A stretch of 64,000 nt of DNA, from positions 38,066,973-38,130,972 of the forward strand of contig NC_090389.1 in the NCBI RefSeq assembly GCF_036365525.1, read 5' to 3'. Below, one piece after another: positions 1 through 45,500 of the stretch (positions within the stretch are counted from its first letter, which is position 1; every line of letters begins with the position of its first letter). The DNA is from Heterodontus francisci. Taxonomy: Eukaryota. The notes under the pieces were generated by a model. That model was given only the letters and a program-made list of their open reading frames with translations, did no database searches and had not been told where the DNA came from. Made by a program: the position numbers and the translations under genes.

Positions 1-3
1 AAG

Positions 4-700
4 ATGGATACCAAATTTCCCAACATGAACTGGAAGGCCATGGATATCCTGTTTAAGTTCCAACTTGTCAAACAGACAATGCAGTTATGCTTCACAGACC
101 GAGTAATTGCAGAACCAGAAAAACAGGCTGTGGAAATACTAATAGATGTTGGAAATGCAGGATTACACAGAATCAATACATCTGGCTTATTTGAAGAGGA
201 CTAGAAAGACCCCACAAAGATATGGAAAGTGCTAGAAGATCAGCTCTGATTACAAGCGTATTTTAGAATTCACCGCCTGGAATTGATGTCCTACAGGCAA
301 CAGCCACAGGAATAATTTGACCAGTTCATCAGTAGATGCTAAAGTCAGGGCAACTTCTCAGAAACTGAGCTGTCGGACCGAATAATAGAGCTGGTGATTG
401 TATTGACCGACACCCATTGAAGCATTTCAGAAAGACTTCTTGGGGAAAAAGAAAGGTCACAGCATTGATGTAGTGCTGGAAAATGGCAAGAAATATGAAG
501 CCATAGCTGGACAACACCTGCAAGCAGTAGGTGGAGCCAACAATGTCAGCACCATAACCAGGTCGAAAAGAGCAAGCAAGCTGTGTGGTAAGCGTAGTCT
601 GTCCCACTCACGCGAACTTGTATTGCATTTCTTGACCAGTGCAAGGCGTGTGGTGCAAAAGGACACTGGGCCCGCCTATGCAGGAAATCTGACTCCAACG
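4..700 (+). pseudogene. gag: Gypsy-type gag (decayed; stops and frameshifts)
   Basis: ATG at 4; Gag-like segments (RLELMSYRQQPQE*FDQFISRC); canonical CX2CX4HX4C knuckle CKACGAKGHWARLC at 640-681, preceded by a degenerate first knuckle (CGKRSLSH). Confidence 0.85.
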
Positions 701-929
701 CATGGCCAGAAGCCACTGCAGGATACAGACAAACAGAAGACAGGCACAGCAACAGGGCAACAGCAGCAAGGAAAGTGTCAGAGACCTGTGTAAACGCAAG
801 CCAATACATGAAGTCCACAGTGAAACAGACCTGAGTAAAGACTCAGCGAGTCAGAAGACGAACAGGCTTTCCACATTGTGCACCTGACACATCACGTTGA
901 TGAAGTTAAACAACTGGAATATTGCGCCA

Positions 930-1260
930 CAATGAACATCATGTGCCCAAAGAAAGCTGGCAAACATACACTCAGGGTCAAGATTGACACCGGCGCTGGT
1001 GCAAATATCCTACCAGTCTGAATGCTCAAAGATATGTACCGGAGTTGTTGGAAATCAATGATACAACCGACAACTGCCAAGTTATCGGCATATAATGAGT
1101 CACCTATCCCTTGCAGTGGCACACTGTCCATGCAATGCAGACATCGCAAGTTGGCATGGAAACCACAAACCTTCTATCTAGTAGACACGAGCGGACCAGC
1201 AGTGGCAGGACTACCAGCATGTAAGGACCTCAACATCATAACTATCCACGAGAGCATTGG
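930..1260 (+). pseudogene. Retropepsin-type aspartic protease of the LTR element
   Basis: Frame of 971 reads LRVKIDTGAGANILPV*MLKD...KLSAYNESPIPCSG...FYLVDTSGPAVAGLPACKDLNII; DTG active site and C-terminal motif typical of Gypsy protease; TGA at 1019 consistent with CpG decay. Confidence 0.9.
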
Positions 1261-1297
1261 TAAGGGGAAATCTCCACAGACCGGAACCCACTTGCAG

Positions 1298-1503
1298 ACT
1301 CTGGCCAGCATCAAATGGTAGACCCTGGAAACCCAGCAACAGCACAAGTATGCCGCGCCTTCACTTCTGCTCTCGAGAGAACCGCCAGCAACACAAAGAG
1401 CCAGAATGGACAGATACCTCTATGAAACCAAGTACTCTTCCCCTAACAAGTCCTCGACCCTGAGTCCCAGGCCTTCAGACGCGCAGGATGAGGAGAGGCA
1501 AAG
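1298..1503 (+). pseudogene. myc: Captured Myc-family sequence, part 1 (Myc box IV, NLS-like segment, acidic stretch before the basic region)
   Basis: Reads LASIKW*TLETQQQHKYAAPSLLLSREPPATQRARMD...STLSPRPSDAQDEERQ; compare c-Myc LVLKRCHVSTHQHNYAAPP...PAAKRVKLD...SPRSSDTEENVKR and N-Myc QQHNYAAPS...LSPRNSDSEDSERR. Confidence 0.9.
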
Positions 1504-3188
1504 TCATAGAGTTATACAGCACAGAAACAGACCCTTCGGCCCATCATGACTGTGCCAGCCATCAAGCACCTAACTATTCTAATCCCATTTTCCAGCACTT
1601 GGCCTGTAGCCTTGTATGCTATGGCATTTCAAGTGCTCATCTAAATACTTCTTAAATGTTGCGAGGGTTCCTGCCTCTACCACCTCTTCAGGCAGTGCGT
1701 TCCAGATTCCAACCACCCTCTGGGTGATAAAAGTTTTCCTCAAATCCCCTCTAAACCTCCTGCACCTTACCTTAAATCTATGCCCCCTGGTTATTGACTA
1801 CACTGCGAAGGGAAAAAGTTTCTTCCTATCTAAAATTATCAATGCCCCTCATAATTTTGTATACCTCAATCATATCTCCCCTCAGCTTTCTCTGCTTTAA
1901 GGAAAACAGCCCTAGCCTTTTCAGTCTCTCTTCATAGCTGAAATGCTCCAGACCAGGGAACATCCTGGTGAATCTCCTCTGCACCCTCGCCAGTGCAATC
2001 ACATCCTTCCTATAGTGTGGTGCCGAGAACTGTACACAGTACTCCAGCTGTGACCTAACTAGCGTTTTATACAGCTCCATCATAACCTCCCTGCTCTTAT
2101 ATTCTATGCCTTGGCTAATAAAGGCAAGTATCCCATATGCTTTCCTAACCACCTTATCTTCCTGTGCTGCTGCCTTCAGTGATCTATGAGCAAGTACACC
2201 AAGGTCTCTCTGACCCTCTGTACTTCCTAGAGTCCTACCATCCATTGTATATTCCCTAGCCTTGTTAGTCCTCCCAAAATGCATCACCTTACATTTCTCG
2301 GGATTAAATTTCATTTGCAACAGCTCCGCCCATCTTACCAGCCCATCTATATCGTCCTGTAATTTAAGGCTTTCCTCTTCATTATTTACGACACCACCAA
2401 TTTTCGTGTCATCTGTGAACTTACTGATTATATCTCCTATATTCACGTCTAAATCATTAATGTCCACTACAAACAGCAAGAGTCCCAGCACTGATCTCTG
2501 CGGTACACCACTGGTCACAGGCTTCCACTTGTAAAAGCAACCCTTGACTATTACCCGCTGCCTTCTGCCACGAAGCCAATTTTGGATCCAATTTGCCAAA
2601 TTGCCCTGGATCCCATGGACTCTTACCTTCCTAACGAATCTCCCATGTGGGACCTTATCAAAAGCCTTACTAAAATCCATATAGACTACATCAACTGCTT
2701 TACCCTCATCTACACATTTTGTCACCGCCTCAAAAAATTCAATCAAGTTAGTCAGACACGATCTCCCCTGACAAAGCCATGCTGACTATCCCTGATTAAT
2801 CCCTGCCTCTCCAAGTGGCGATTAATCCTGTCCCGCAGAATTTTTTCCAATAGTTTCCCAACCACTGATGTTAGACTCACTGCCTGTAAATACCTGGTTT
2901 ATCCCTGCTACCCTTCTTAAATAATGGTACCACATTCGCTGTCCTCCAGTCCTCTGGTACCTCTCCTGTGGCCAGAGAGGATTTGAAAATTTGGGTCAGA
3001 GCCCCTGCCTCCTCCCTTGCCTCACATAACAGCCTGGGATACATCTCATCTGGGTCTGTGGATTTATCCACTTTTAAGCCCGCTAAAACAGCTAATACTT
3101 CCTCCCTTTCAATGCTAATATGTTCAAGTATATCACAATCCCCCTCCCTGATCTCTACACCTACGTCGTCCTTATCCATAGTGAACAC
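1504..3188 (-). mobile_element. CR1 LINE, 5'-truncated (RT region + 3' tail), inserted into the myc sequence
   Basis: ORFs 1826-2746 (DFSKAFDKVPH, SGVPQRSVLG, KFTDD) and 2877-3236 (ANVVPLFKKG); short-repeat tail next to 1504. Confidence 0.95.
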
Positions 3189-3440
3189 AGAACACGCAAT
3201 GTCCTGAAGAGGCAGAGGAAGAATGAGTTGAAGCATTGTCTATTGGCTCTTCAAGATGAGGTGCTGGAACCTTCCAAGAATGTTTGGGGCTCAAAAGTGG
3301 TCCTTTTGAGAAAAGCAACAGAGTATGCTAGCAGGCTGAAGGCAGAGCAACAGAAACTGAATGGAGAGAGGGAGAAATCTTAGGAAGAACAGCAACAGAT
3401 GAGATGCAAATTCCCCGAGCAAGAGTTGTCAAACCACCGA
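3189..3440 (+). pseudogene. myc: Captured Myc-family sequence, part 2 (bHLH-leucine zipper)
   Basis: RTRNVLKRQRKNELKHCLLALQDEVLEPSKNVWGSKVVLLRKATEYASRLKAEQQKLNGEREK...QQQMRCK aligns without gaps to c-Myc [57 protein letters not shown]; stop/indel near 3381. Confidence 0.95.
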
Positions 3441-3559
3441 GATGATATCTCGACTTTTGAGCCTCTATATTTGTGAATTTTACAATTTCTATCCATGTGT
3501 AAATAATCTTGATGTTATCTATTTTATGTTTTTACTTTTAGCATAAGAGACCTATCTTT

Positions 3560-3573
3560 GGAAAGAAGGGGGA
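3560..3573 (+). other. Polypurine tract (plus-strand primer site)
   Basis: GGAAAGAAGGGGGA immediately 5' of the TG start of the LTR. Confidence 0.8.
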
Positions 3574-3811
3574 TGTTGTATGATTGCCTTAAAGAGTGAG
3601 ATCCCTTTAAGATCTTAGTATGCTAATGAGCTAAGTACCAGGACCTAGTCATGTGACTGCAAGTCAGGGTCACTCTGCAACTGTAACACCTGGAGGCAAG
3701 TTCTGTAAATAGTCAGATTGTACTGTATGTAATAGTTAGCTGTAAGAAACCTGTTTGAGATCTTCAACTAACTGGACTCCACACATCTCATTTATGTTGC
3801 ATCAGACAACA
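3574..3811 (+). mobile_element. 3' LTR (~238 bp)
   Basis: Starts TGTTGTATGAT, ends ATCAGACAACA (10/11 inverted match); probable decayed poly(A) signal near 3744; alternative end at 3828 (TCATTACA). Confidence 0.7.
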
Positions 3812-4469
3812 TAAAAGAACTCATTACATCTTTCTTTTTTTTGGCTGAGTAGTTTTGTGTTTTGAGTTGATAGAGTATCAAGCCACTTATCAGTTAATTT
3901 GTTTTTAAAAATTCTGTTCAACTTAAATAGCCACATTTGTAATTTTGTCCAAATTTAGTGTTAATGTATGAAATGTGCCAAGAAACCTTGAATGAGGTAG
4001 AAAAGATAAATTACTTGATCATCTTTCCACATCTATTTCTAAGTATATATATATATTTTTATCCATGAAAGAAGTTATGCCTTGAACTGATTCTCTTTAT
4101 TCGCGAGCTCCCCACCATCATCTCGTCTATCGGTGTAAGGTTCCAAGAGCCATCTTTAGATGTGAACCTGAGTGATAAACAGGCTATTTTACTGTAGGGG
4201 ATAGTACAGCTGAGCTTCATCCTGTTTTCACCATATATCCTTACATGTCCCAGTTCAGGAGCTTGGTATAATTCAGTCACATGTCATCCTTACGAACTGA
4301 GCCATCAGCAAGAGAGCTCTTCTGTCTCAGATTTTCTTCTCTCCAGTCAGTGGCCACTCTCCACTACTTCACCCAAGTAACCAATTTTCATGTTTTAGTC
4401 TAGACAGTGATTATTGACTAATCTGTCAATTATGGGGCCATCACAGGTAAGTTTGATCCTGACCTCATC

Positions 4470-6479: not shown

Positions 6480-7370
6480 TACATCAACAGTCTGCTGAAG
6501 AGGCTATCCCAAGGACACAGTCTACTACCCGAGGCTCAACTATCACCAGATGTCCGAGCGGCAGTGTTAGCAAAGACTGCAACTCTCCAGGGAGACCGTG
6601 ACTGATCTCTGCACCATGAGGCTGGGTGAGCTGAGACCCATGGGTGTTGCTGGACACCCAATGTCAGTGGAACTGAAGATCACCGTGGTTGTCAACTACT
6701 ATGCCTCCAGCTCTTTCCACTGGGGACATGTGTATGATCTCCCAGTCTTCAGCCCATCAGTGCATTAAGGCGATGACCAATGCCCTGTTCAAGAGGGATG
6801 GTGACTATGTGTGCTACACCACACCGATCCAGACACTCAGGTGGAGAGGATGATTGGGTTGAGGGCCATTGCTGTGTTTTCCCAAGGGCAAGGTGTCATG
6901 GACTGCACACATTTGGCCATCAAGGCTTCCATGTACCAGCCAGCAGCCTTAATCAACAGAAAGGGTTTCCACTCGCTCAATGTTCAACTGGTCTGCGACC
7001 ACCGAAAGTGGATCCTTCAGGTGTGTGCATGGTTCCTGGGAAGCAACCACAATGCCTACATACTTCAGCAGTCCCAGGTGCCATAGCTTCTCCGATCTCT
7101 TGCGTGCCTTCACGGATGGATACCGGGAGACAAGGCATACCTGCTGAAGACATGGCTGCTCACACCTATGATGAAACCATGCACAGATAGTGACGAGAGG
7201 TACAACACCTGCTATGGGTCAACCCGTGCGACCATTGAGTGGACCATAGGTCTACTGAAGATGTGGTTCAGGTGTCTTGATCGATCTGATGGAGCCTTTC
7301 AGTATTCCTCAGCGAAAGTCTCTCATATCGTGCTGGTCTGATGTGCTCTGCACAACCTGGCACTGTAAAG
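6480..7370 (+). pseudogene. Harbinger DDE transposase (HARBI1-like), disrupted
   Basis: GVMDCTHLAI, NRKGFHSLNVQLVCD, GSNHNAYIL, GDKAYLLKTWLLTP, RATIEWTIGLLKMWFRCLD, CALHNLA motifs; stops and frameshifts. Confidence 0.92.
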
Positions 7371-7849: not shown

Positions 7850-9650
7850 AGGTGCTCTTCCTAACTCTTTTACAAGTGCTCCTACAAGGTGCTGCCCCTG
7901 TGCCTAAAGCAGTGGTGGAGGCAGGCTGCTGATTGTGCTGTCCCATGGTTTGGGATGACCTTGACCATTGTCCTCTGGCTGCCTGAGGTCTGGAGGGTCC
8001 GGACATGCTTAAGGGCTCCTGCACATGTGCAGGACCCTCCTCTGCTATTGCAGCTATGTGAGGCGTTGGTGTATCTGACAGAGCAGATGAAGGGCCTGCC
8101 TACTCAGGAGTGCCCTGAGAGGAGCCCCCATTTGCAGAAGGCAGCGGCTCCTCCTCCCTTGCAAGTCACACTTGTACCTCCCTGATGACCTGACAAGGAC
8201 GAGGACCTGGTGGGGACTCCAGGTGCCTTGACACCCTCTTGCTTTGCCACTGCTGCATAGAGCTCATGGACAAAGCGATGGCATGCAGGTCTGCGCGCAT
8301 CTCCGGAATCCACTGAGTGGTCTGCTGGATCAGGCCCTCCATGAAGGTGGCCAATCTTTCCATGGAGAAAGCCATGTGTGCACACACCAGAAACATAGCA
8401 GCACTCATGACCTGGATGGACCCCTCCATCATCCATGCATGGTTGCGCATAGCCTCTGGAAGCTCCCCCAGATGTTCCTGCACACCTCTCTGCAGCTCCA
8501 GCGGTTACTGTTTGCTGATGACTCTACGTCATCAGCCTTTGGCTCTGCATCAGCCTGGCCTCCCACACTCCTGCAACTATCAAAGGTCTCAGCTGTCACA
8601 GCCTCCATTAGCTGCTTGGGCACATCTGTGCTGTGCTCACCAGGTTGTGAGTCCAATTCTAAGCATGAACAAATAAATACCTCCCAATGTGAGTATATCT
8701 GCTTTGGTGAAGGGTGCAGGAATGATGTGATGGTGCGTCCTCTGAGGATCCTTCGTCCTCCTCAGAGGCGGCTGGCTGGTCCCTGGTCTCTCCAGCTCTT
8801 GGCACTTCAGCATGACCCTGACCTGCATGAGAGAACCGATACATTGAAGGGTTAAGAGCTTTCAGTTTCCACATCCCAACTATCCCTGTTGTGGAGCTCT
8901 ATGTGTCCAGTGGTGGACACATGAGCATTATGCCTCACGTGTGTCAGATGCACCCTTGAGCCCCTCCACTTGTTCACTCACCCTCTTGGGTGGGCACTCC
9001 TGTTGTGCCATCAGCAATCATATGGCCGCCCTGATGCCCTGCCATTTCCAAGGCTGCCGCCTCCATGCAGATACACCACCGCTCCACTGGCCTTTGCCCT
9101 TTCCTTACTGTTGTGTGCTGTCTTCTCCAGCAAGGACAAGAAAGAACACTGTTAGCTTCCCCACAGAGACAAGCACAATGCCTATGCTGGTGGCAGCCCA
9201 GAGGTCCATGATGGGGGCAAGTGAATGCCTCCTGCATGAAGCCAATCTTGAAGGACATTGTGAGGGTCAGGGATGACAGGTGGGTGCCTCTCACCAAGAC
9301 GCAGTCATTCCTCTGACAGGATATGCTACGTCCTGACTCCTTTGCCATCTACTATGGGGTCATTCTTTCTCCACCAAACACACCCTTTTGCGTTGCCACA
9401 TACAAGGCCCAAAGGGAAAAGAGGTATGCAATACCTTGGCAGACCAAAGGAGGTCATTTGCCTGCTTGTGGCACTGTATCCAGGTTCTCTGGGTGACCCA
9501 ATGGCTGCTGGCTTCTTCTGCAATCCAGGATTGTTTGGTCAGGTGGGGCCCTCTCCTTGTCCTCTCCCTGGGGAAGAGGATTTCCTGCCTTGCCCTTGCA
9601 ACCTGCGGAGAACCTGCAGGGAAGCATCGCTGAACCATGGGGCCATATGG
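7850..9650 (-). pseudogene. Harbinger Myb/SANT-like accessory protein (spliced, decayed)
   Basis: APWFSDASLQV...RQEILFP...QSWIAEEASSHWVTQRTWIQCHKQANDL at ~9430-9650, followed by acidic/coiled segments downstream; exon bounds approximate. Confidence 0.75.
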
Positions 9651-11019
9651 GGTCCTTCCTCTGCCCTTCGGCCTGCAGCCTTCTGTTCAGCTCCTTGGCA
9701 GCAGTTAGGCAGAGGCTCTTTCAGAGCGGGGTAAGTGAATGCAGGGCTGGCAGCCCTTTAAATATAGTGCCAGAACCTGCCTCAGTGTCACCTAAAACTG
9801 CATTGCCTCCCGACTGTCCAGTCCAATTAGATGGCCCCTGCATCTCCACTGAGTTAATTGTCCGGCCACTGTCAGATCGCGTGCAGCCGGTTGCTGAACA
9901 CCAAGTGGAGGTGGCACCCACTTCTGATGCCGCTGCCGGGACCTGTGGCCTTGCCGCAAAATCCAGCCTGTCCTTTTTTTTCATTTGAGAAGGAGCTAAT
10001 AGAATGTTAATAATTATGTTAAACTCAATTTATAGCAAAGTCTGAAGTTGGGATTCTTTATTGCTTCCTGAAAACAGGAGACAGATCTATTGAGGCATAA
10101 AGTAATTTCAGTAGCTAAATAATCAATAGAAAGGTTGTTCTGTTTGTTGTCCTGTACACGTTACTAAAAGCTCAACTTGATATGAAAGCTAAAGGAAATG
10201 TTCTCAAAGGGGTAAGGAATTGTAAGAGTGATATAGAGTATGGAAACAGAGAAATCTAGAGTACAATAGACTTCAGAATAAAAGTTATGTGCTGCTTTTG
10301 CAAACTGAGCCATCAGGGAAGCTTCCAAATTGATTTTCAACAAAACTGAAGAACAACCACTTCACACTTCCACAAAACTAATTTAACATATTATGGTTTT
10401 CAAATCAGGGCAGTTTAGATTCAGAACACTTTTCCTTGTATTGAGGCTATGACATTGCACGACTCTAATCATTTTTTAAAGAATAACAGTCAAATATGTG
10501 AATTATGCACACATATGTCAATCACTTGTATTTGATGTGAATGGTCAGGGTTTTGGGCCCATGCCTGTGATGATTTTTACCTTTGAATGCAGTCATGTGA
10601 ATTTCTCATGAGACCAGGAATTCCTGTCTATTTTATGTAGCAGCTGGAATCAATTACAGCAGCCAGACTCAGATAGTAGTAACGCTAGGGAGAGAGAAGA
10701 GATGTAGTCCTTTAGGAGAGTGGGAGAGAGGGAGAAAACCTGGATCAGTACTTTGCGGAGAGAAGCCAGGAATAGTATTCTGATGGGGAGGAGGTGGGCG
10801 TGGTGCTTTGGGGATAAAGAGGAAAGAAGGCAAGATTGACATTTTGTTGGATGGGGAAGCAGGAATGAGGGGAAATTAGAGTATCAGCATGATGGTGAAG
10901 GATAGAGGCAGTTTGAATCAAGTTAGATGAGTGTCAATTTGAATTGAGGATAGAGAGGAAGAATGATTGTCATTAGACTTAAGAACAAGATCTAGAAAGA
11001 CTAAGGAGGGCTGAACTGT

Positions 11020-14429: not shown

Positions 14430-15876
14430 ATACTACAACACTGGAATCTACCCAGCAATGTGGAAAATCGCCCAGGTATGTTCTGTCCACAAAAAGCAGG
14501 ACAAATCCAATCCAGCCAATTACTGCTCCAACAGTCTACTCTCGATCATCAGCAAATGATGGAAGGGGTCATCGACAGTGCTATCAAGAAGCATTTACTC
14601 AGCAATAACCTGCTCACTGGCGCTCAGTTTGGGTTCCGCCAGGGCCACTCAGCTCCAAACCTCATGACAGCCTTGGGTCAAATATTGACAAAAGAGATGA
14701 ACTGAAGAAGAGGTGAGGTGAGAGTGACTGCCTTTGACATCAAGGCAGCATTTGACTCAGTGTGACATCAAGGAGCCCTAGCAAAACTGGAGTCAATGGA
14801 AATCGGGGGGAAAAGTCTCCCCTGTCATATGTAACGCAAAGGAAGATGGTTGTGGTTGTTGGAGGTCAATCATCTCAGTCCCAGGATATCATTGCAGGAG
14901 TTCCACAGGGTAGTGTCCTAGGCCCAACCATTTTCAGCTGCTTCATCAATGATCTTCCGTCCATCATACGGTCAGAAGTGCAGAAGTTCGCTGATAATTA
15001 CACAATGTTCAGCACCATTCACGACTCCTCAGATACTGAAGCAGCCTGTGTCCAGATGCAGCAAGACCTGGACAACTTTCAGGCTTGGGCTGACAAGTGG
15101 CAAGTAACATTCGTGCCTCACAAGTGCCAGGCAATGTCCATCTCAAACAAGAGAGAATCTAGCCATCCCCCCTTGATGTTCAATGGCATAATCATCACTG
15201 AATCCCCCACTATCAACATCCTGCCGGTTACCATTGACCAGAAACTGAACTAGACCAGCCACATAAATGCTGTGGCTACAAGAGCAGGTCAGAGGCTGGG
15301 AATTCTGCGGCGCGTAACTCACCTCCTGTCTCCCCAAAGCCTGTCCACCATCTACAAGGCAAAAGTTAGGAGTGTGATGGAATACTCTCCACTTGTCTGA
15401 ATGGGTGCAGCTCCAACAACACTCAAGAAGTTCGACACCATCCAGGACAAAGCAGCCCACTTGATTGGCATCCCATCCACCACCCTCTTCAACATTCACT
15501 CACTTCACCACTGACACACAGTAGCAGCAGTGTGTACCATATACAAGATGCACTGCAGCAACGCACCAAGGCTCCTTCGACAGCATCTTCTAAACCTGCG
15601 ACTTCGACCATCTAGAAGGAAAAGGGCAGCAGATGCATGGGAATACCACCAACTGCAAGTTTCCCTCCAAGCCACACTATACCGCTGTTCCTTCACTGTC
15701 GCTGTGTCAAACTCCTGGAACTCCCTTCCTAACAGCACTGTAGGTGTACCTACACCACATGGACTGCAGAGGTTCAAGAAGGCAGATTTCCACCACCTTC
15801 TCAAGGGCAATTAGGGATGGGCAATAAATTATGGCCTAGCCAGTGACACCCACATCCCATGAACGAATAAAAAAAA
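14430..15876 (+). mobile_element. 5'-truncated LINE (same family as 31206-34430): RT and 3' tail
   Basis: QFGFRQGHSA, AGVPQGSVLGPTIFSCFINDL, KFADN; tail ...CACATCCCATGAACGAATAAAAAAA. Confidence 0.9.
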
Positions 15877-41886: not shown

Positions 41887-44800
41887 TTCCCTGCTCCACT
41901 CCTGCTGCTCCTGCTGTGCTCCTCTCTCTCTCTCCACTCCTGCCGTGCTCCTCTCTCTCTCTTTCCGCTCCCGCCATGTTCCTCTCTCTCTCTCCACTCC
42001 TGCCGTGCTCCTCTCTCTCTCTTTCCGCTCCCGCCATGCTCCTCTCTCTCTCCGCTCCCGCCATGCTCCTCTCTCTCTCCGCTCCCGCCGTGCTCCTCTC
42101 TCTCTCCACTCCTGCCGTGCTCCTCTCTCTCTCTCCACTCCCGCCATGTTCCTCTCTCTCTCTCCGCTCACGCCGTGCTCCTCTCTCCCTCTTTCCGCTC
42201 CCGCCATGCTCCTCTCTCTCTCTCCGCTCCCGCCATGCTCCTCTCTCTCTCTCCGCTCCTGCCGTGCTCTTCTCTCTCTCTCCGCTCCTGCCGTGCTCCT
42301 CTCTCTCTCTCCGCTCCTGCCATACTCCTCTCTCTCTCCGCTCCTACCGTGCTCCTCTCTCTCTCTCCACTCCCGCCATGTTCCTCTCTCTCTCTCCGCT
42401 CCTGCCGTGCTCCCCTCTCTCTCTCCGCTCCTGCCGTGCTCCCCTCTCTCTCTCTCCGCTCCTGCCGTGCTCCCCTCTCTCTCTCCGCTCCTGCCGTGCT
42501 CCCCTCTCTCTCTCTCCGCTCCTACCGTGCTCCTCTCTCTCTCTCCACTCCCGCCATGTTCCTCTCTCTCTCTCCGCTCCCGCCGTGTTCCCCTCTCTCT
42601 CTCCGCTCCCGCCCTGCTCCTCTCTCTCTCTCTCTGCTCCCGCCCTGCTCCTCTCTCTCTCTCTGCTCCCGCCCTGTTCCTCTCTCTCTCTCTGCTCCCG
42701 CCCTGCTCCTCTCTCTCTCTCTGCTCACGCCGTGTTCCTCTCTCTCTCCGCTCCCGCCATGTTCCTCTCTCTCTCTGCTCCCGCCCTGCTCCTCTCTCTC
42801 TCTCCGCTCCCGCCGTGTTCCTCTCTCTCTCTCCGCTCCCGCCATGTTCCTCTCTCTCTCTCCGCTCCCGCCATGTTCCTCTCTCTCTCTCCGCCCCTGC
42901 CGTGCTCCTCTCTCTCTCTCTCCACTCCCGCCATGCTCCTCTCTCTCTCTCCGCTCCCGCCATGCTCCTCTCTCTCTCTCCGCTCCTGCCGTGCTCCTCT
43001 CTCTCTCTCCACTCCCTCCATACTCCTCTCTCTCTCTCCGCTCCCGCCATGTTCCTCTCTCTCTCTCCGCTCCCGCCGTGTTCCTCTCTCTCTCTCCGCT
43101 CCTGCCGTGCTCCTCTCTCTCTCTCCACTCCCGCCATGCTCCTCTCTCTCTCTCCACTCCCGCCATGCTCCTCTCTCTCTCTCCACTCCCGCCATGCTCC
43201 TCTCTCTCTCTCCACTCCCGCCATACTCCTCTCTCTCTCTCCGCTCCCGCCATGTTCCTCTCTCTCTCTCCGCTCCCGCCATGTTCCTCTCTCTCTCTCC
43301 GCTCCTGCTGTGCTCCTCTCTCTCTCTCCGCTCCCGCCGTGCTCCTCTCTCTCTCTCCGCTCCCGCCGTGCTCCTCTCTCTCCGCTCCCGCCGTGCTCCT
43401 CTCTCTCCGCTCCCGCCGTGCTCCTCTCTCTCCGCTCCCGCCGTGCTCCTCTCTCTCTCTCTGCTCCCGCCATGCTCCTCTCTCTCTCTCCGCTCCCGCC
43501 ATGCTCCTCTCTCTCTCTCCGCTCCCGCCATTCTTCTCTCTCTCTCTCCGCTCCTTCCGTGCTCCCCTCTCTCTCTCCACTCCCGCCATGCTGCTCTCTC
43601 CACTCCCGCCATGCTCCTCTCTCTCTCTCCGCTCCCGCCATGTTCCTCTCTCTCTCTCCGCTCCCGCCATGTTCCCCTCTCTCTCTCCGCTCCCACCGTG
43701 TTCCCCTCTCTCTCTCCGCTCCCACCGTGTTCCCCTCTCTCTCTCCGCTCCCGCCCTGCTCCTCTCTCTCTCTGCTCCCGCCCTGCTCCTCTCTCTCTCT
43801 GCTCCCGCCCTGCTCCTCTCTCTCTCTCTCTGCTCCCGCCCTGCTCCTCTCTCTCTCTCTGCTCCCGCCCTGTTCCTCTCTCTCTCTCTGCTGCCGCCCT
43901 GCTCCTCTCTCTCTCTCTGCTCCCGCCCTGCTCCTCTCTCTCTCTCTGCTCACGCCGTGTTCCTCTCTCTCTCTCTCCGCTCCCGCCATGTTCCTCTCTC
44001 TCTCTCCGCTCCCGCCATGTTCCTCTCTCTCTCTCTGCTCCCGCCCTGCTCCTCTCTCTCTCTCCGCTCCCGCCATGTTCCTCTCTCTCTCTCCGCTCCC
44101 GCCATGTCCCTCTCTCTCTCTCCGCTCCCGCCATGTCCCTCTCTCTCTCTCCGCTCCCGCCATGTTCCTCTCTCTCTCTCCGCTCCCGCCATGCTTCTCT
44201 CTCTCTCTCTGCTCCCGCCGTGCTCCTCTCTCTCTCTCCACTCCCGCCATGTTCCTCTCTCTCTCTCTGCTCCCGCCGTGCTCCACTCTCTCTTTCCGCT
44301 CCCGCCATGCTCCTCTCTCTCTGCTCCTGCCCTGCTCCTCTCTCTCTCTCCGCTCCTGCCGTGTTCCTCTCTCTCTCTCTGCTGCCGCCCTGCTCCTCTC
44401 TCTCTCTCCGCTCCTGCCGTGCTCCTCTCTCTCCGCTCCTGCCCTGCTCCTCTCTCTCTCTCCGCTGCCGCCATGTTCCTCTCTCTCTCTCTGCTCCCGC
44501 CCTGCTCCTCTCTCTCTCTCCGCTCCCGCCATGTTCCTCTCTCTCTCTCCGCTCCCGCCATGTTCCTCTCTCTCTCTCCGCTCCCGCCATGTTCCTCTCT
44601 CTCTCTCCGCTCCCGCCATGCTTCTCTCTCTCTCTCTGCTCCCGCCGTGCTCCTCTCTCTCTCTCCACTCCCGCCATGTTCCTCTCTCTCTCTCTGCTCC
44701 CGCCGTGCTCCACTCTCTCTTTCCGCTCCCGCCATGCTCCTCTCTCTCTTTCCGCTCCCGCCATGCTCCTCTCTCTCTGCTCCTGCCCTGCTCCTCTCTC

Positions 44801-45500
44801 TCTCTCCGCTCCTGCCGTGCTCCTCTCTCTCCGCTCCCGCCGTGCTCCTCTCTCTCCGCTCCCGCCGTGCTCCTCTCTCTCCGCTCCCGCCGTGCTCCTC
44901 TCTCTCCGCTCCCGCCGTGCTCCTCTCTCTCCGCTCCCGCCGTGCTCCTCTCTCTCTCTCCGCTCCCGCCGTGCTCCTCTCTCTCTCTCCGCTCCCGCCG
45001 TGCTCCTCTCTCTCTCTCCGCTCCCGCCATGCTTCTCTCTCTCTCTCCGCTCCTTCCGTGCTCCCCTCTCTCTCTCCACTCCCGCCATGCTCCTCTCTCC
45101 GCTCCCGCCATGTTCCTCTCTCTCTCTCCGCTCCCGCCGTGTTCCCCTCTCTCTCTCCGCTCCCGCCGTGTTCCCCTCTCTCTCTCTGCTCCCGCCCTGC
45201 TCCTCTCTCTCTCTGCTCCCGCCCTGCTCCTCTCTCTCTCTCTGCTCCCGCCCTGCTCCTCTCTCTCTCTCTCTGCTCCCGCCCTGCTCCTCTCTCTCTC
45301 TCTGCTCCCGCCCTGTTCCTCTCTCTCTCTCTGCTCCCGCCCTGCTCCTCTCTCTCTCTCTGCTCCCGCCCTGCTCCTCTCTCTCTCTCCGCTCCTCCTG
45401 TGCTCCTCAATTTCTCGCTCTGTCTCTGTCTCCAGTCTCTGACTCTGTGCTTTTGCCGCACTTTTTTATCCTCCACTCCTGCCGTGCTCCTCTCTCTCTC
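41887..45500. repeat. Minisatellite, ~25-33 bp unit CCGCTCCCGCCATGCTC(CT)n, >100 copies
   Basis: Directly visible tandem array; explains the >1000-aa low-complexity ORFs on both strands. Confidence 0.98.

What the first reader, a model, noticed from the sequence alone, without database searches (positions are those of the whole stretch)
3189..3230. All three E-box-reading residues of the captured Myc basic region are changed
Seen: RTRNVLKRQRKN versus c-Myc [12 protein letters not shown], i.e. H359>R, E363>K, R367>K, each reachable by one transition, while helix and zipper hydrophobics are largely kept. Known: His/Glu/Arg at these positions specify CACGTG binding. The N-terminal transactivation boxes MBI/MBII are also absent. 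Inference: the product could have been a Max-sequestering dominant negative or a non-specific nucleic-acid binder rather than an oncoprotein; it may also be post-insertion decay.
Basis: partly seen in the sequence, partly recalled or inferred. Interest (0 to 1): 0.7.

Follow-up and report, generated by a model that had tools for sequence, protein, structure and literature searches.

The report
Shark retrotransposon carrying a defused Myc
A jumping gene in a shark genome once picked up the DNA-binding half of a Myc-family gene and spread to thousands of copies, most of which lost two of the three residues that read DNA, while the third change flagged here is just decay of this one copy.

Summary
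The three changes are real at 3189-3230, but only two are family traits. The stretch lies in a decayed copy of a roughly 3.3 kb non-autonomous LTR retrotransposon with about 3,000 copies (inferred). Spliced mRNA of mych, a fish-retained Myc paralogue (not c-Myc), replaced most of pol, in frame behind gag and protease. MBI and MBII were absent from every copy classed. Glu>Lys is family-wide (634 versus 42 exact motif hits) and came first. His>Arg came later and fits the two younger structural classes once CpG decay is allowed for. Arg>Lys is at background (8 of 100). A 1.7 kb LINE splits this copy at the basic region, so it encodes nothing. All three 5' junction types keep the frame, suggesting translation in active masters. 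Yet the Myc part shows no purifying selection (9 nonsynonymous to 1 synonymous), so a useful Max-sequestering inhibitor is unsupported. Two of only 10 lineage changes hit the three DNA-reading residues (p about 0.01, post hoc). Best reading: a dispensable passenger whose E-box reading was selected away (0.5); neutral hitchhiking is close (0.33). No description of the family was found in seven literature searches.

The parts
1..850 (+). gag remnant of the LTR element, broken by stops and frameshifts; CCHC knuckle at about 637-687. The element begins about 980 bases upstream of the window (5' LTR at L031:5022 onward)
   Evidence: Pfam zf-CCHC E 0.005 and zf-CCHC_2 E 0.0005, both below the curated cut-off; LTR pair
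851..1251 (+). aspartic-protease region (DTGA motif at 986-997), in frame with the captured Mych part; stop at 1019
   Evidence: translation; only weak, sub-threshold Pfam aspartyl-protease hits in 3 of 8 other copies; third-position excess of lineage variants
1252..1503 (+). captured mych exon-3 sequence, first part (QQHxYAAP box, NLS-like stretch, serine-rich linker); stop at 1319
   Evidence: 88% identity to the host mych gene over 252 nt; weak Myc_N hit
1504..3188 (-). later LINE insertion splitting the Mych frame at the first codon of the basic region
   Evidence: RVT_1 E 4.6e-16; the flanks meet at adjacent host positions. 'CR1-like' is a recalled label
3189..3230 (+). basic region: His>Arg at 3195-3197 (later family trait), Glu>Lys at 3207-3209 (early family trait), Arg>Lys at 3219-3221 (background decay)
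3231..3412 (+). helix-loop-helix and truncated leucine zipper of mych; stop at 3381 in this copy
   Evidence: 85.7% identity to the host gene over 3189-3412; Pfam HLH
3413..3573 (+). 3' remnant of the parent element (pol-tail-like RVVKPP motif, a recalled label) and polypurine tract next to the LTR
3574..3828 (+). 3' LTR, 255 bp, TG...CA, followed by a 5-bp target-site duplication with one mismatch
   Evidence: K2P distance 0.12 to the 5' LTR

Best explanation
Shown: a Gypsy-like LTR element replaced its RT-to-integrase region with spliced mych mRNA (about residues 115-359, no transactivation boxes), in one frame with gag and protease. It then amplified to thousands of copies through nested deletions (classes A1, A2, B, C). 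Glu>Lys arose almost at once, His>Arg later; Arg>Lys is decay of single copies. Inferred: active masters were mobilised by a helper and translated the Mych piece as a dispensable tail of the Gag-protease polyprotein. A transactivation-less Myc bHLH-Zip that still reads E-boxes would block the Myc/Max network in germline or early embryo. Masters that lost E-box reading were therefore less costly and took over. The changes are a defusing of a passenger, not the birth of a useful inhibitor.
For: Precise exon 2-exon 3 junction and LTR anatomy. In-frame 5' junctions in 7 of 11, 13 of 16 and 47 of 49 scorable copies of three junction types (1/27 by chance), and an in-frame original 3' junction in 11 of 15 A1 copies. 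Glu kept in 15 class-A copies against 37 with AAG, but in only 2 B+C copies against 107 with AAG/AGG (p 7e-7), the latter at the A>G background. Only 10 family-level residue changes in 157 codons, 2 of them at the three DNA-reading residues (p 0.011) and 5 at conserved sites (p 0.085). A sub-lineage changed the same codon again, Lys>Arg, in 18 of 109 copies. Passages of 10.1101/2020.05.04.076190: H359/E363 make the base-specific contacts, and the double mutant fails to recognise the E-box and is dominant-negative only when over-expressed. Passages of 10.64898/2026.04.01.715400: Max E32K cannot tell specific from non-specific DNA.
Against: The enrichment test is post hoc and rests on 10 events; 9 nonsynonymous to 1 synonymous does not differ from neutral (p 0.47). 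Translation is inferred from frames only. The third-position signal in gag and protease may have come from helper lineages by recombination, since the Myc part diverged much less than the LTR or third positions elsewhere. Whole-span knuckle-to-protease frames are noisy (24 same frame, 28 and 14 shifted, of 66), and only block-wise modes give one frame (56 of 70 and 57 of 74). The later 3' deletion does not keep the tail frame. Glu>Lys mutants of other bHLH proteins are themselves dominant-negative, so the change need not lower the cost. Glu and Lys copies within class A do not differ in lineage markers (p 0.12), so the order is soft.
Confidence: 0.5

Rival explanations
1. Neutral hitchhiking: the Mych piece was inert cargo (frames kept by chance or for RNA stability), and Glu>Lys and His>Arg are ordinary transitions that happened to fall in master copies.
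For: No purifying selection on the Myc part: third-position share 6 of 19 against 21 of 29 in the protease, Fisher p 0.008; 9:1 nonsynonymous to synonymous is compatible with neutrality. Both changes are single transitions and G>A is the commoner background change. Most of the captured exon-2 part was later deleted.
Against: The only two family-level changes in the 14-codon basic region both fall on the three DNA-reading residues (p 0.033 given two hits; p 0.011 overall). His>Arg creates a CpG, against the usual mutational direction. Four of five junctions keep the frame (p 0.045).
Confidence: 0.33
2. Co-opted function: the tail helped the element, as a Max-sequestering inhibitor, or as a basic nucleic-acid-binding or nuclear-import module in the particle; the changes to Lys and Arg improved it.
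For: The bHLH-Zip and NLS-like stretch survived three rounds of in-frame deletion while the acidic upstream part was lost. All family-level changes at these residues add or keep positive charge. Only 1 family-level change in the 39 HLH codons. The Myc part changed slowly at all codon positions (11 of 437 columns against 25 of 213 in the LTR).
Against: No third-position excess in the Myc part; conserved HLH-zipper sites are not better kept than variable ones (0.78 versus 0.82); one conserved zipper site changed and the zipper end was lost.
Confidence: 0.14
3. All three changes are private post-insertion decay of this copy.
For: This copy is dead (LINE insertion, three stops in the frame), and Arg>Lys is at background.
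Against: Glu is absent from 29 of the 29 nearest copies and 92 of 100 position-ordered copies; His codons in class C match CGC plus CpG decay (CAC/CAT 14 versus TGC/TGT 18).
Confidence: 0.01

Closest known systems
LTR-mediated retrocopies (PMC5131818, passages seen; it cites maize Bs1 and HERV-K/FAM8A1)
   Same: Partial spliced mRNA replaces the internal ORFs between two LTRs, often in frame, and the chimera can retrotranspose again.
   Different: Those passages describe single or few-copy chimeras; here one capture amplified to about 3,000 copies with nested subfamilies, and the cargo is a Myc-family DNA-binding domain.
Avian myelocytomatosis virus MC29 gag-myc (PMC13431497, passages seen)
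   Same: Replication-defective, helper-dependent retroelement with cellular myc-family sequence fused in frame behind gag.
   Different: A germline-fixed LTR retrotransposon with no env seen; donor is mych; MBI/MBII were not captured and E-box reading was lost, so it cannot be a transforming v-myc.
Myc-HEA (H359A/E363A) and Max E32K mutants (10.1101/2020.05.04.076190; 10.64898/2026.04.01.715400; passages seen)
   Same: The same two base-reading positions are altered; loss of E-box discrimination with dimerisation kept is the expected effect.
   Different: Engineered or tumour variants of full-length proteins; here a natural, transactivation-less, polyprotein-fused fragment with His>Arg instead of His>Ala.
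Id proteins and Omomyc (recalled, no call)
   Same: HLH or bHLH-Zip modules that inhibit by dimerising without activating.
   Different: Id genes are conserved host genes; this fragment shows no purifying selection and no evidence of protein.
Host mych (myelocytomatosis oncogene homolog; PMC11457510 and PMC3958507, passages seen)
   Same: Direct donor; 86.8% mean identity of 100 copies to the host gene over exon 3.
   Different: The host gene has its intron, MBI/MBII and intact His/Glu/Arg.

Membership tests
Myc family (mych-derived) | bHLH-Zip homologous to Myc and placed with mych | tested here: met
   copies form a 96/88 clade sister to this genome's mych (99/98) inside shark mych (25 of 27 intended rows, two dropped by the motif filter)
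Myc family (functional transcription factor) | MBI and MBII transactivation boxes | tested here: not met
   capture starts near residue 115, after both boxes
Myc family (functional transcription factor) | His/Glu/Arg E-box-reading residues | tested here: not met
   all three present in 3 of 100 copies
LTR-mediated retrocopy | host sequence between two LTRs, replacing internal ORFs | tested here: met
LTR-mediated retrocopy | intron lost (mRNA template) | tested here: met
   exon 2 end joined to exon 3 start in classes A and B
LTR-mediated retrocopy | microsimilarity at the template-switch points | not testable with these tools
   the parent element was not found: 20 of 20 fetched hits to the A1-only 3' stretch carried Myc
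Ty3/Gypsy LTR retrotransposon | TG...CA LTRs, short target-site duplication, primer-binding motif, polypurine tract | tested here: met
   5-bp duplication with 0-1 mismatch in 16 of 25 full copies; shared TGG-initial 9-mer after the 5' LTR in 22 copies. These mark an LTR element, not Gypsy specifically
Ty3/Gypsy LTR retrotransposon | gag knuckle and aspartic protease | tested here: inconclusive
   only sub-threshold Pfam hits; DTG motif in 36 of 100 copies
Ty3/Gypsy LTR retrotransposon | RT-RNase H-integrase order and RT phylogeny | not testable with these tools
   these domains are replaced by mych; no relative found for the protease-Mych frame (weak search)
Acutely transforming gag-myc retrovirus | gag-fused cellular myc sequence in a defective genome | tested here: met
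Acutely transforming gag-myc retrovirus | intact transactivation and DNA binding, transforming ability | tested here: not met
   boxes absent and Glu lost; transformation itself not testable
Dominant-negative HLH inhibitor (Id-like) | dimerisation surface kept by purifying selection | tested here: not met
   low power (10 lineage changes)
Dominant-negative HLH inhibitor (Id-like) | expressed protein that binds Max | not tested
   no complex prediction run; no copy of 100 has an open frame through protease and Myc part, 9 of 100 through the Myc part alone

The most novel reading that the evidence does not exclude
This is a germline fossil of a gag-myc-type capture by a non-retroviral LTR retrotransposon. 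Its polyprotein released a Myc-family bHLH-Zip that interfered with the host Myc/Max network, and selection on the masters rewrote the DNA-reading residues step by step (Glu>Lys, His>Arg, then Lys>Arg). That turned it into a sequence-blind, basic, nuclear module that the element kept through three in-frame deletions because it aided its own spread.
Probability: 0.2. Interest if true: 0.85.

Novelty: new variant of a known kind. Interest (0 to 1): 0.6.

Why it matters
Myc capture is known from somatic avian retroviruses. A germline retrotransposon family that carried a Myc-family domain to thousands of copies was not found in the literature searches made here. Its nested subfamilies record what happens to a captured proto-oncogene fragment over time, which makes it possible to test whether host fitness forces such cargo to be disarmed before an element can amplify. 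Practically, the copies contaminate annotation: at least seven are listed as myc-like proteins and one is spliced into a glucose-transporter gene model.

Tried and rejected
Donor first taken to be MYCL; rejected for mych by database labels and the tree. Private decay of all three residues: rejected. Mutational hot spot for Glu>Lys: background G>A is 5.7%. An apparent excess of synonymous differences against the host gene (10:10, p 0.04) was rejected as evidence of selection on the element, because it includes host-lineage changes; the polarised count is 9:1. Frequent stops at five host codons (four CGN, one CAA) read as decay, not a shared break. Search for the autonomous parent: none among 20 fetched of the 21 hits not already known to carry Myc, of 40 listed; protein search found nothing. 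The DNA tree of 178 copies is poorly resolved and was used only loosely. The p value used 9 changes by mistake; redid it with 10. Expression: no RNA holder listed; contigs of runs only guessed to be RNA cover the element, which is no evidence of transcription. No complex prediction: a Myc-Max pair would pass by likeness to solved structures. No earlier scan notes. Literature searches without a description of this family: (listings only; subscription journals, repeat databases and supplements not seen, and a repeat library may hold the family unnamed).

Full report
Observation. Window 3189-3230 reads RTRNVLKRQRKNEL. It aligns without gaps to human c-Myc bHLH-Zip chains (4 distinct PDB sequences matched, best E 1.5e-12) and meets Pfam HLH. 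The three codons are CGC, AAG and AAG, each one transition from the host donor's CAC, GAG and AGG. Passages of 10.1101/2020.05.04.076190 give H359 and E363 as the base-contacting residues and group R367 with the backbone contacts; that R367 also reads the central CG is recalled.

Anatomy. The stretch lies in an LTR element: 5' LTR about 980 bases upstream of the window, gag with a CCHC knuckle, a DTG protease region, Myc-family sequence from 1252, a LINE on the minus strand at 1504-3188, the rest of the bHLH-Zip to 3412, a short tail, a polypurine tract and a 255-bp 3' LTR. Of 25 full copies, 16 have a 5-bp target-site duplication with at most one mismatch; most are 3.0-3.5 kb. The knuckle and protease rest on motifs and sub-threshold Pfam hits, so 'Gypsy-like' is an inference. 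The LINE sits at the first codon of the basic region and the frame holds three stops: this copy encodes nothing.

Family size. A DNA search gave 3401 first-look candidates, 40 scored, the others at 86-89% identity to the window. Exact motifs match 613 places and 634 plus 43 places. At 7-9% decay per site that implies about 2,700-4,100 copies (inference).

Donor. A Myc_N search scored 119 of 1624 candidates and showed three intron-containing host genes. The copies match the one on contig C16 at 86.8% mean identity (100 of 100). The matching database protein is labelled myelocytomatosis oncogene homolog, Heterodontus francisci. In a protein tree the window and five annotated copies form a 96/88 clade, sister to this genome's mych (99/98) and nested in shark mych (25 rows, two intended rows dropped by a motif filter). 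At 11 sites where this genome's Mych differs from at least four other sharks, the copies side with it at 7. The capture thus falls on this lineage's own branch. Copy-derived proteins appeared only under that species among the 120 listed of 1244 hits, which depends on annotation. Contigs of two other coded organisms hold the family; some of organism B bridge the protease-Mych junction and some of organism C bridge the Mych end and tail. mych is treated as fish-specific in PMC11457510 and is expressed after the mid-blastula transition with anti-apoptotic activity in zebrafish (PMC3958507; passages).

History. The 100 first copies by position fall into nested classes: A (13) carries host sequence from about residue 115, with exon 2 joined precisely to exon 3, so the template was spliced mRNA; B (23) starts 37 nt later; C (49, the window's class) starts inside exon 3; 15 were unclassed. 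A splits into A1 (longer 3' end) and A2. None reaches MBI or MBII. Lineage markers rise from A1 to C (0.1, 0.25, 0.5, 0.85; markers defined by A against B+C, so partly circular). LTR pairs differ by K2P 0.128 in B (10 copies), 0.123 in C (16) and 0.123 in the window; only one A1 pair was measurable, at 0.27. No rate was available to convert this to years.

The three residues. In the 29 nearest copies none has Glu, 2 have His and 27 keep Arg (biased to the window). In the 100 position-ordered copies the Glu codon reads AAG 79, AGG 11, GAG 8, other 2; the His codon CGC 33, CAC 31, TGC 17, other 19; the Arg codon is Arg in 85 and AAG in 8; all three are intact in 3. Genome-wide the Lys motif outnumbers the Glu motif 634 to 42, the host gene set aside. 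Across 189 non-redundant loci of mixed origin, Glu is kept in 10 of 35 A1, 5 of 24 A2, 1 of 39 B and 1 of 76 C; the B+C cases match the 2.1% A>G background. So Glu>Lys arose in class A, before much else had changed (Glu and Lys copies of class A do not differ in markers, p 0.12). CpG sites here decay about equally to TG and CA, so His codons in class C fit CGC plus decay (14 versus 18), class B fits loosely (16 versus 9, p 0.23), and class A is mostly true His (43 versus 4). Arg>Lys is at background (9 of 115, p 0.31). A sub-lineage changed the Glu position again, to Arg (18 of 109). The motif used to sample copies excludes any subfamily with other changes in the basic region.

Was it translated? 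The 5' junction is in frame with the protease in 7 of 11, 13 of 16 and 47 of 49 scorable copies of A, B and C, 1/27 by chance. The original 3' junction is in frame with the tail in 11 of 15 A1 copies, but the later deletion is not (2 of 74 in C). Block-wise modes put knuckle and protease in one frame (56 of 70, 57 of 74), while whole-span counts are noisy. Gag and protease show a third-position excess (21 of 29, p 2e-5). Against this, the Myc part differs between A and C at 11 of 437 columns, against 25 of 213 in the LTR and 25 of 211 third positions in gag and protease. The simplest reading is that flanking parts were exchanged with helper lineages, so their signal may not belong to this element. 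Translation is likely (about 0.7), not shown.

Was the Myc part useful? No sign of it: third-position share 6 of 19; 9 nonsynonymous to 1 synonymous change between A and C, against a neutral 2.8:1 (p 0.47); conserved HLH-zipper sites kept no better than variable ones (0.78 versus 0.82). Power is low.

Was DNA reading selected away? Class C differs from the host by 10 element-lineage residue changes in 157 codons: 2 basic, 1 HLH, 2 zipper, 5 upstream. Two or more hits on the three residues has p 0.011; both basic-region hits landing there has p 0.033; 5 of 10 at conserved sites has p 0.085. These are post hoc. Myc H359A/E363A keeps Max and non-specific DNA binding, loses E-box recognition and is dominant-negative only on over-expression; the same paper notes dominant-negative effects of the equivalent Glu mutants in other bHLH proteins. 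[quoted passage not shown] The inference is that an activation-less fragment still reading E-boxes would block Myc targets, so masters without that ability spread more easily. I put this at 0.5, neutral hitchhiking at 0.33 and a co-opted function at 0.14.

Comparison and novelty. It works like an LTR-mediated retrocopy (PMC5131818, passages) and meets the features that could be tested. It resembles MC29 gag-myc (PMC13431497, passages) in layout but fails membership: no transactivation boxes, no E-box Glu, no env seen. It is not shown to be an Id-like inhibitor. Seven searches found no description of the family (listings only; supplements, repeat databases and subscription journals not seen). 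Verdict: observation confirmed, interpretation partly supported, a new variant of a known kind, interest 0.6.

Noticed in passing
   Followed up: no
P0002, P0004-P0006, P0013, P0014, P0024: Copies of the element are annotated as N-myc-like or myc-like proteins, inflating the apparent Myc family of this species.
   Followed up: partly
G000, Myc_N search: Only three host Myc genes surfaced (myc, mycn, mych); no MYCL among 119 scored of 1624 candidates. It may simply have been crowded out.
   Followed up: no
Myc part of the copies: It diverged four to five times less between classes A and C than the LTR or third codon positions of gag and protease; recombination with helpers is assumed, an RNA-level constraint is not excluded.
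   Followed up: partly
window 6805-7338 +: Broken DDE_Tnp_4 transposase (Harbinger-like, recalled label), E 3e-9 and 2e-10, with decayed frames on the opposite strand at about 8100-9700 that gave no Pfam hit.
   Followed up: partly
window 41917-45395: Strongly strand-skewed 29-bp minisatellite, about 122 copies, 89% matches.
   Followed up: no
window 14756-15250 +: Another LINE reverse-transcriptase fragment.
   Followed up: no
L157, L191: Copies of the family inserted into other copies of the family (nested insertions).
   Followed up: no
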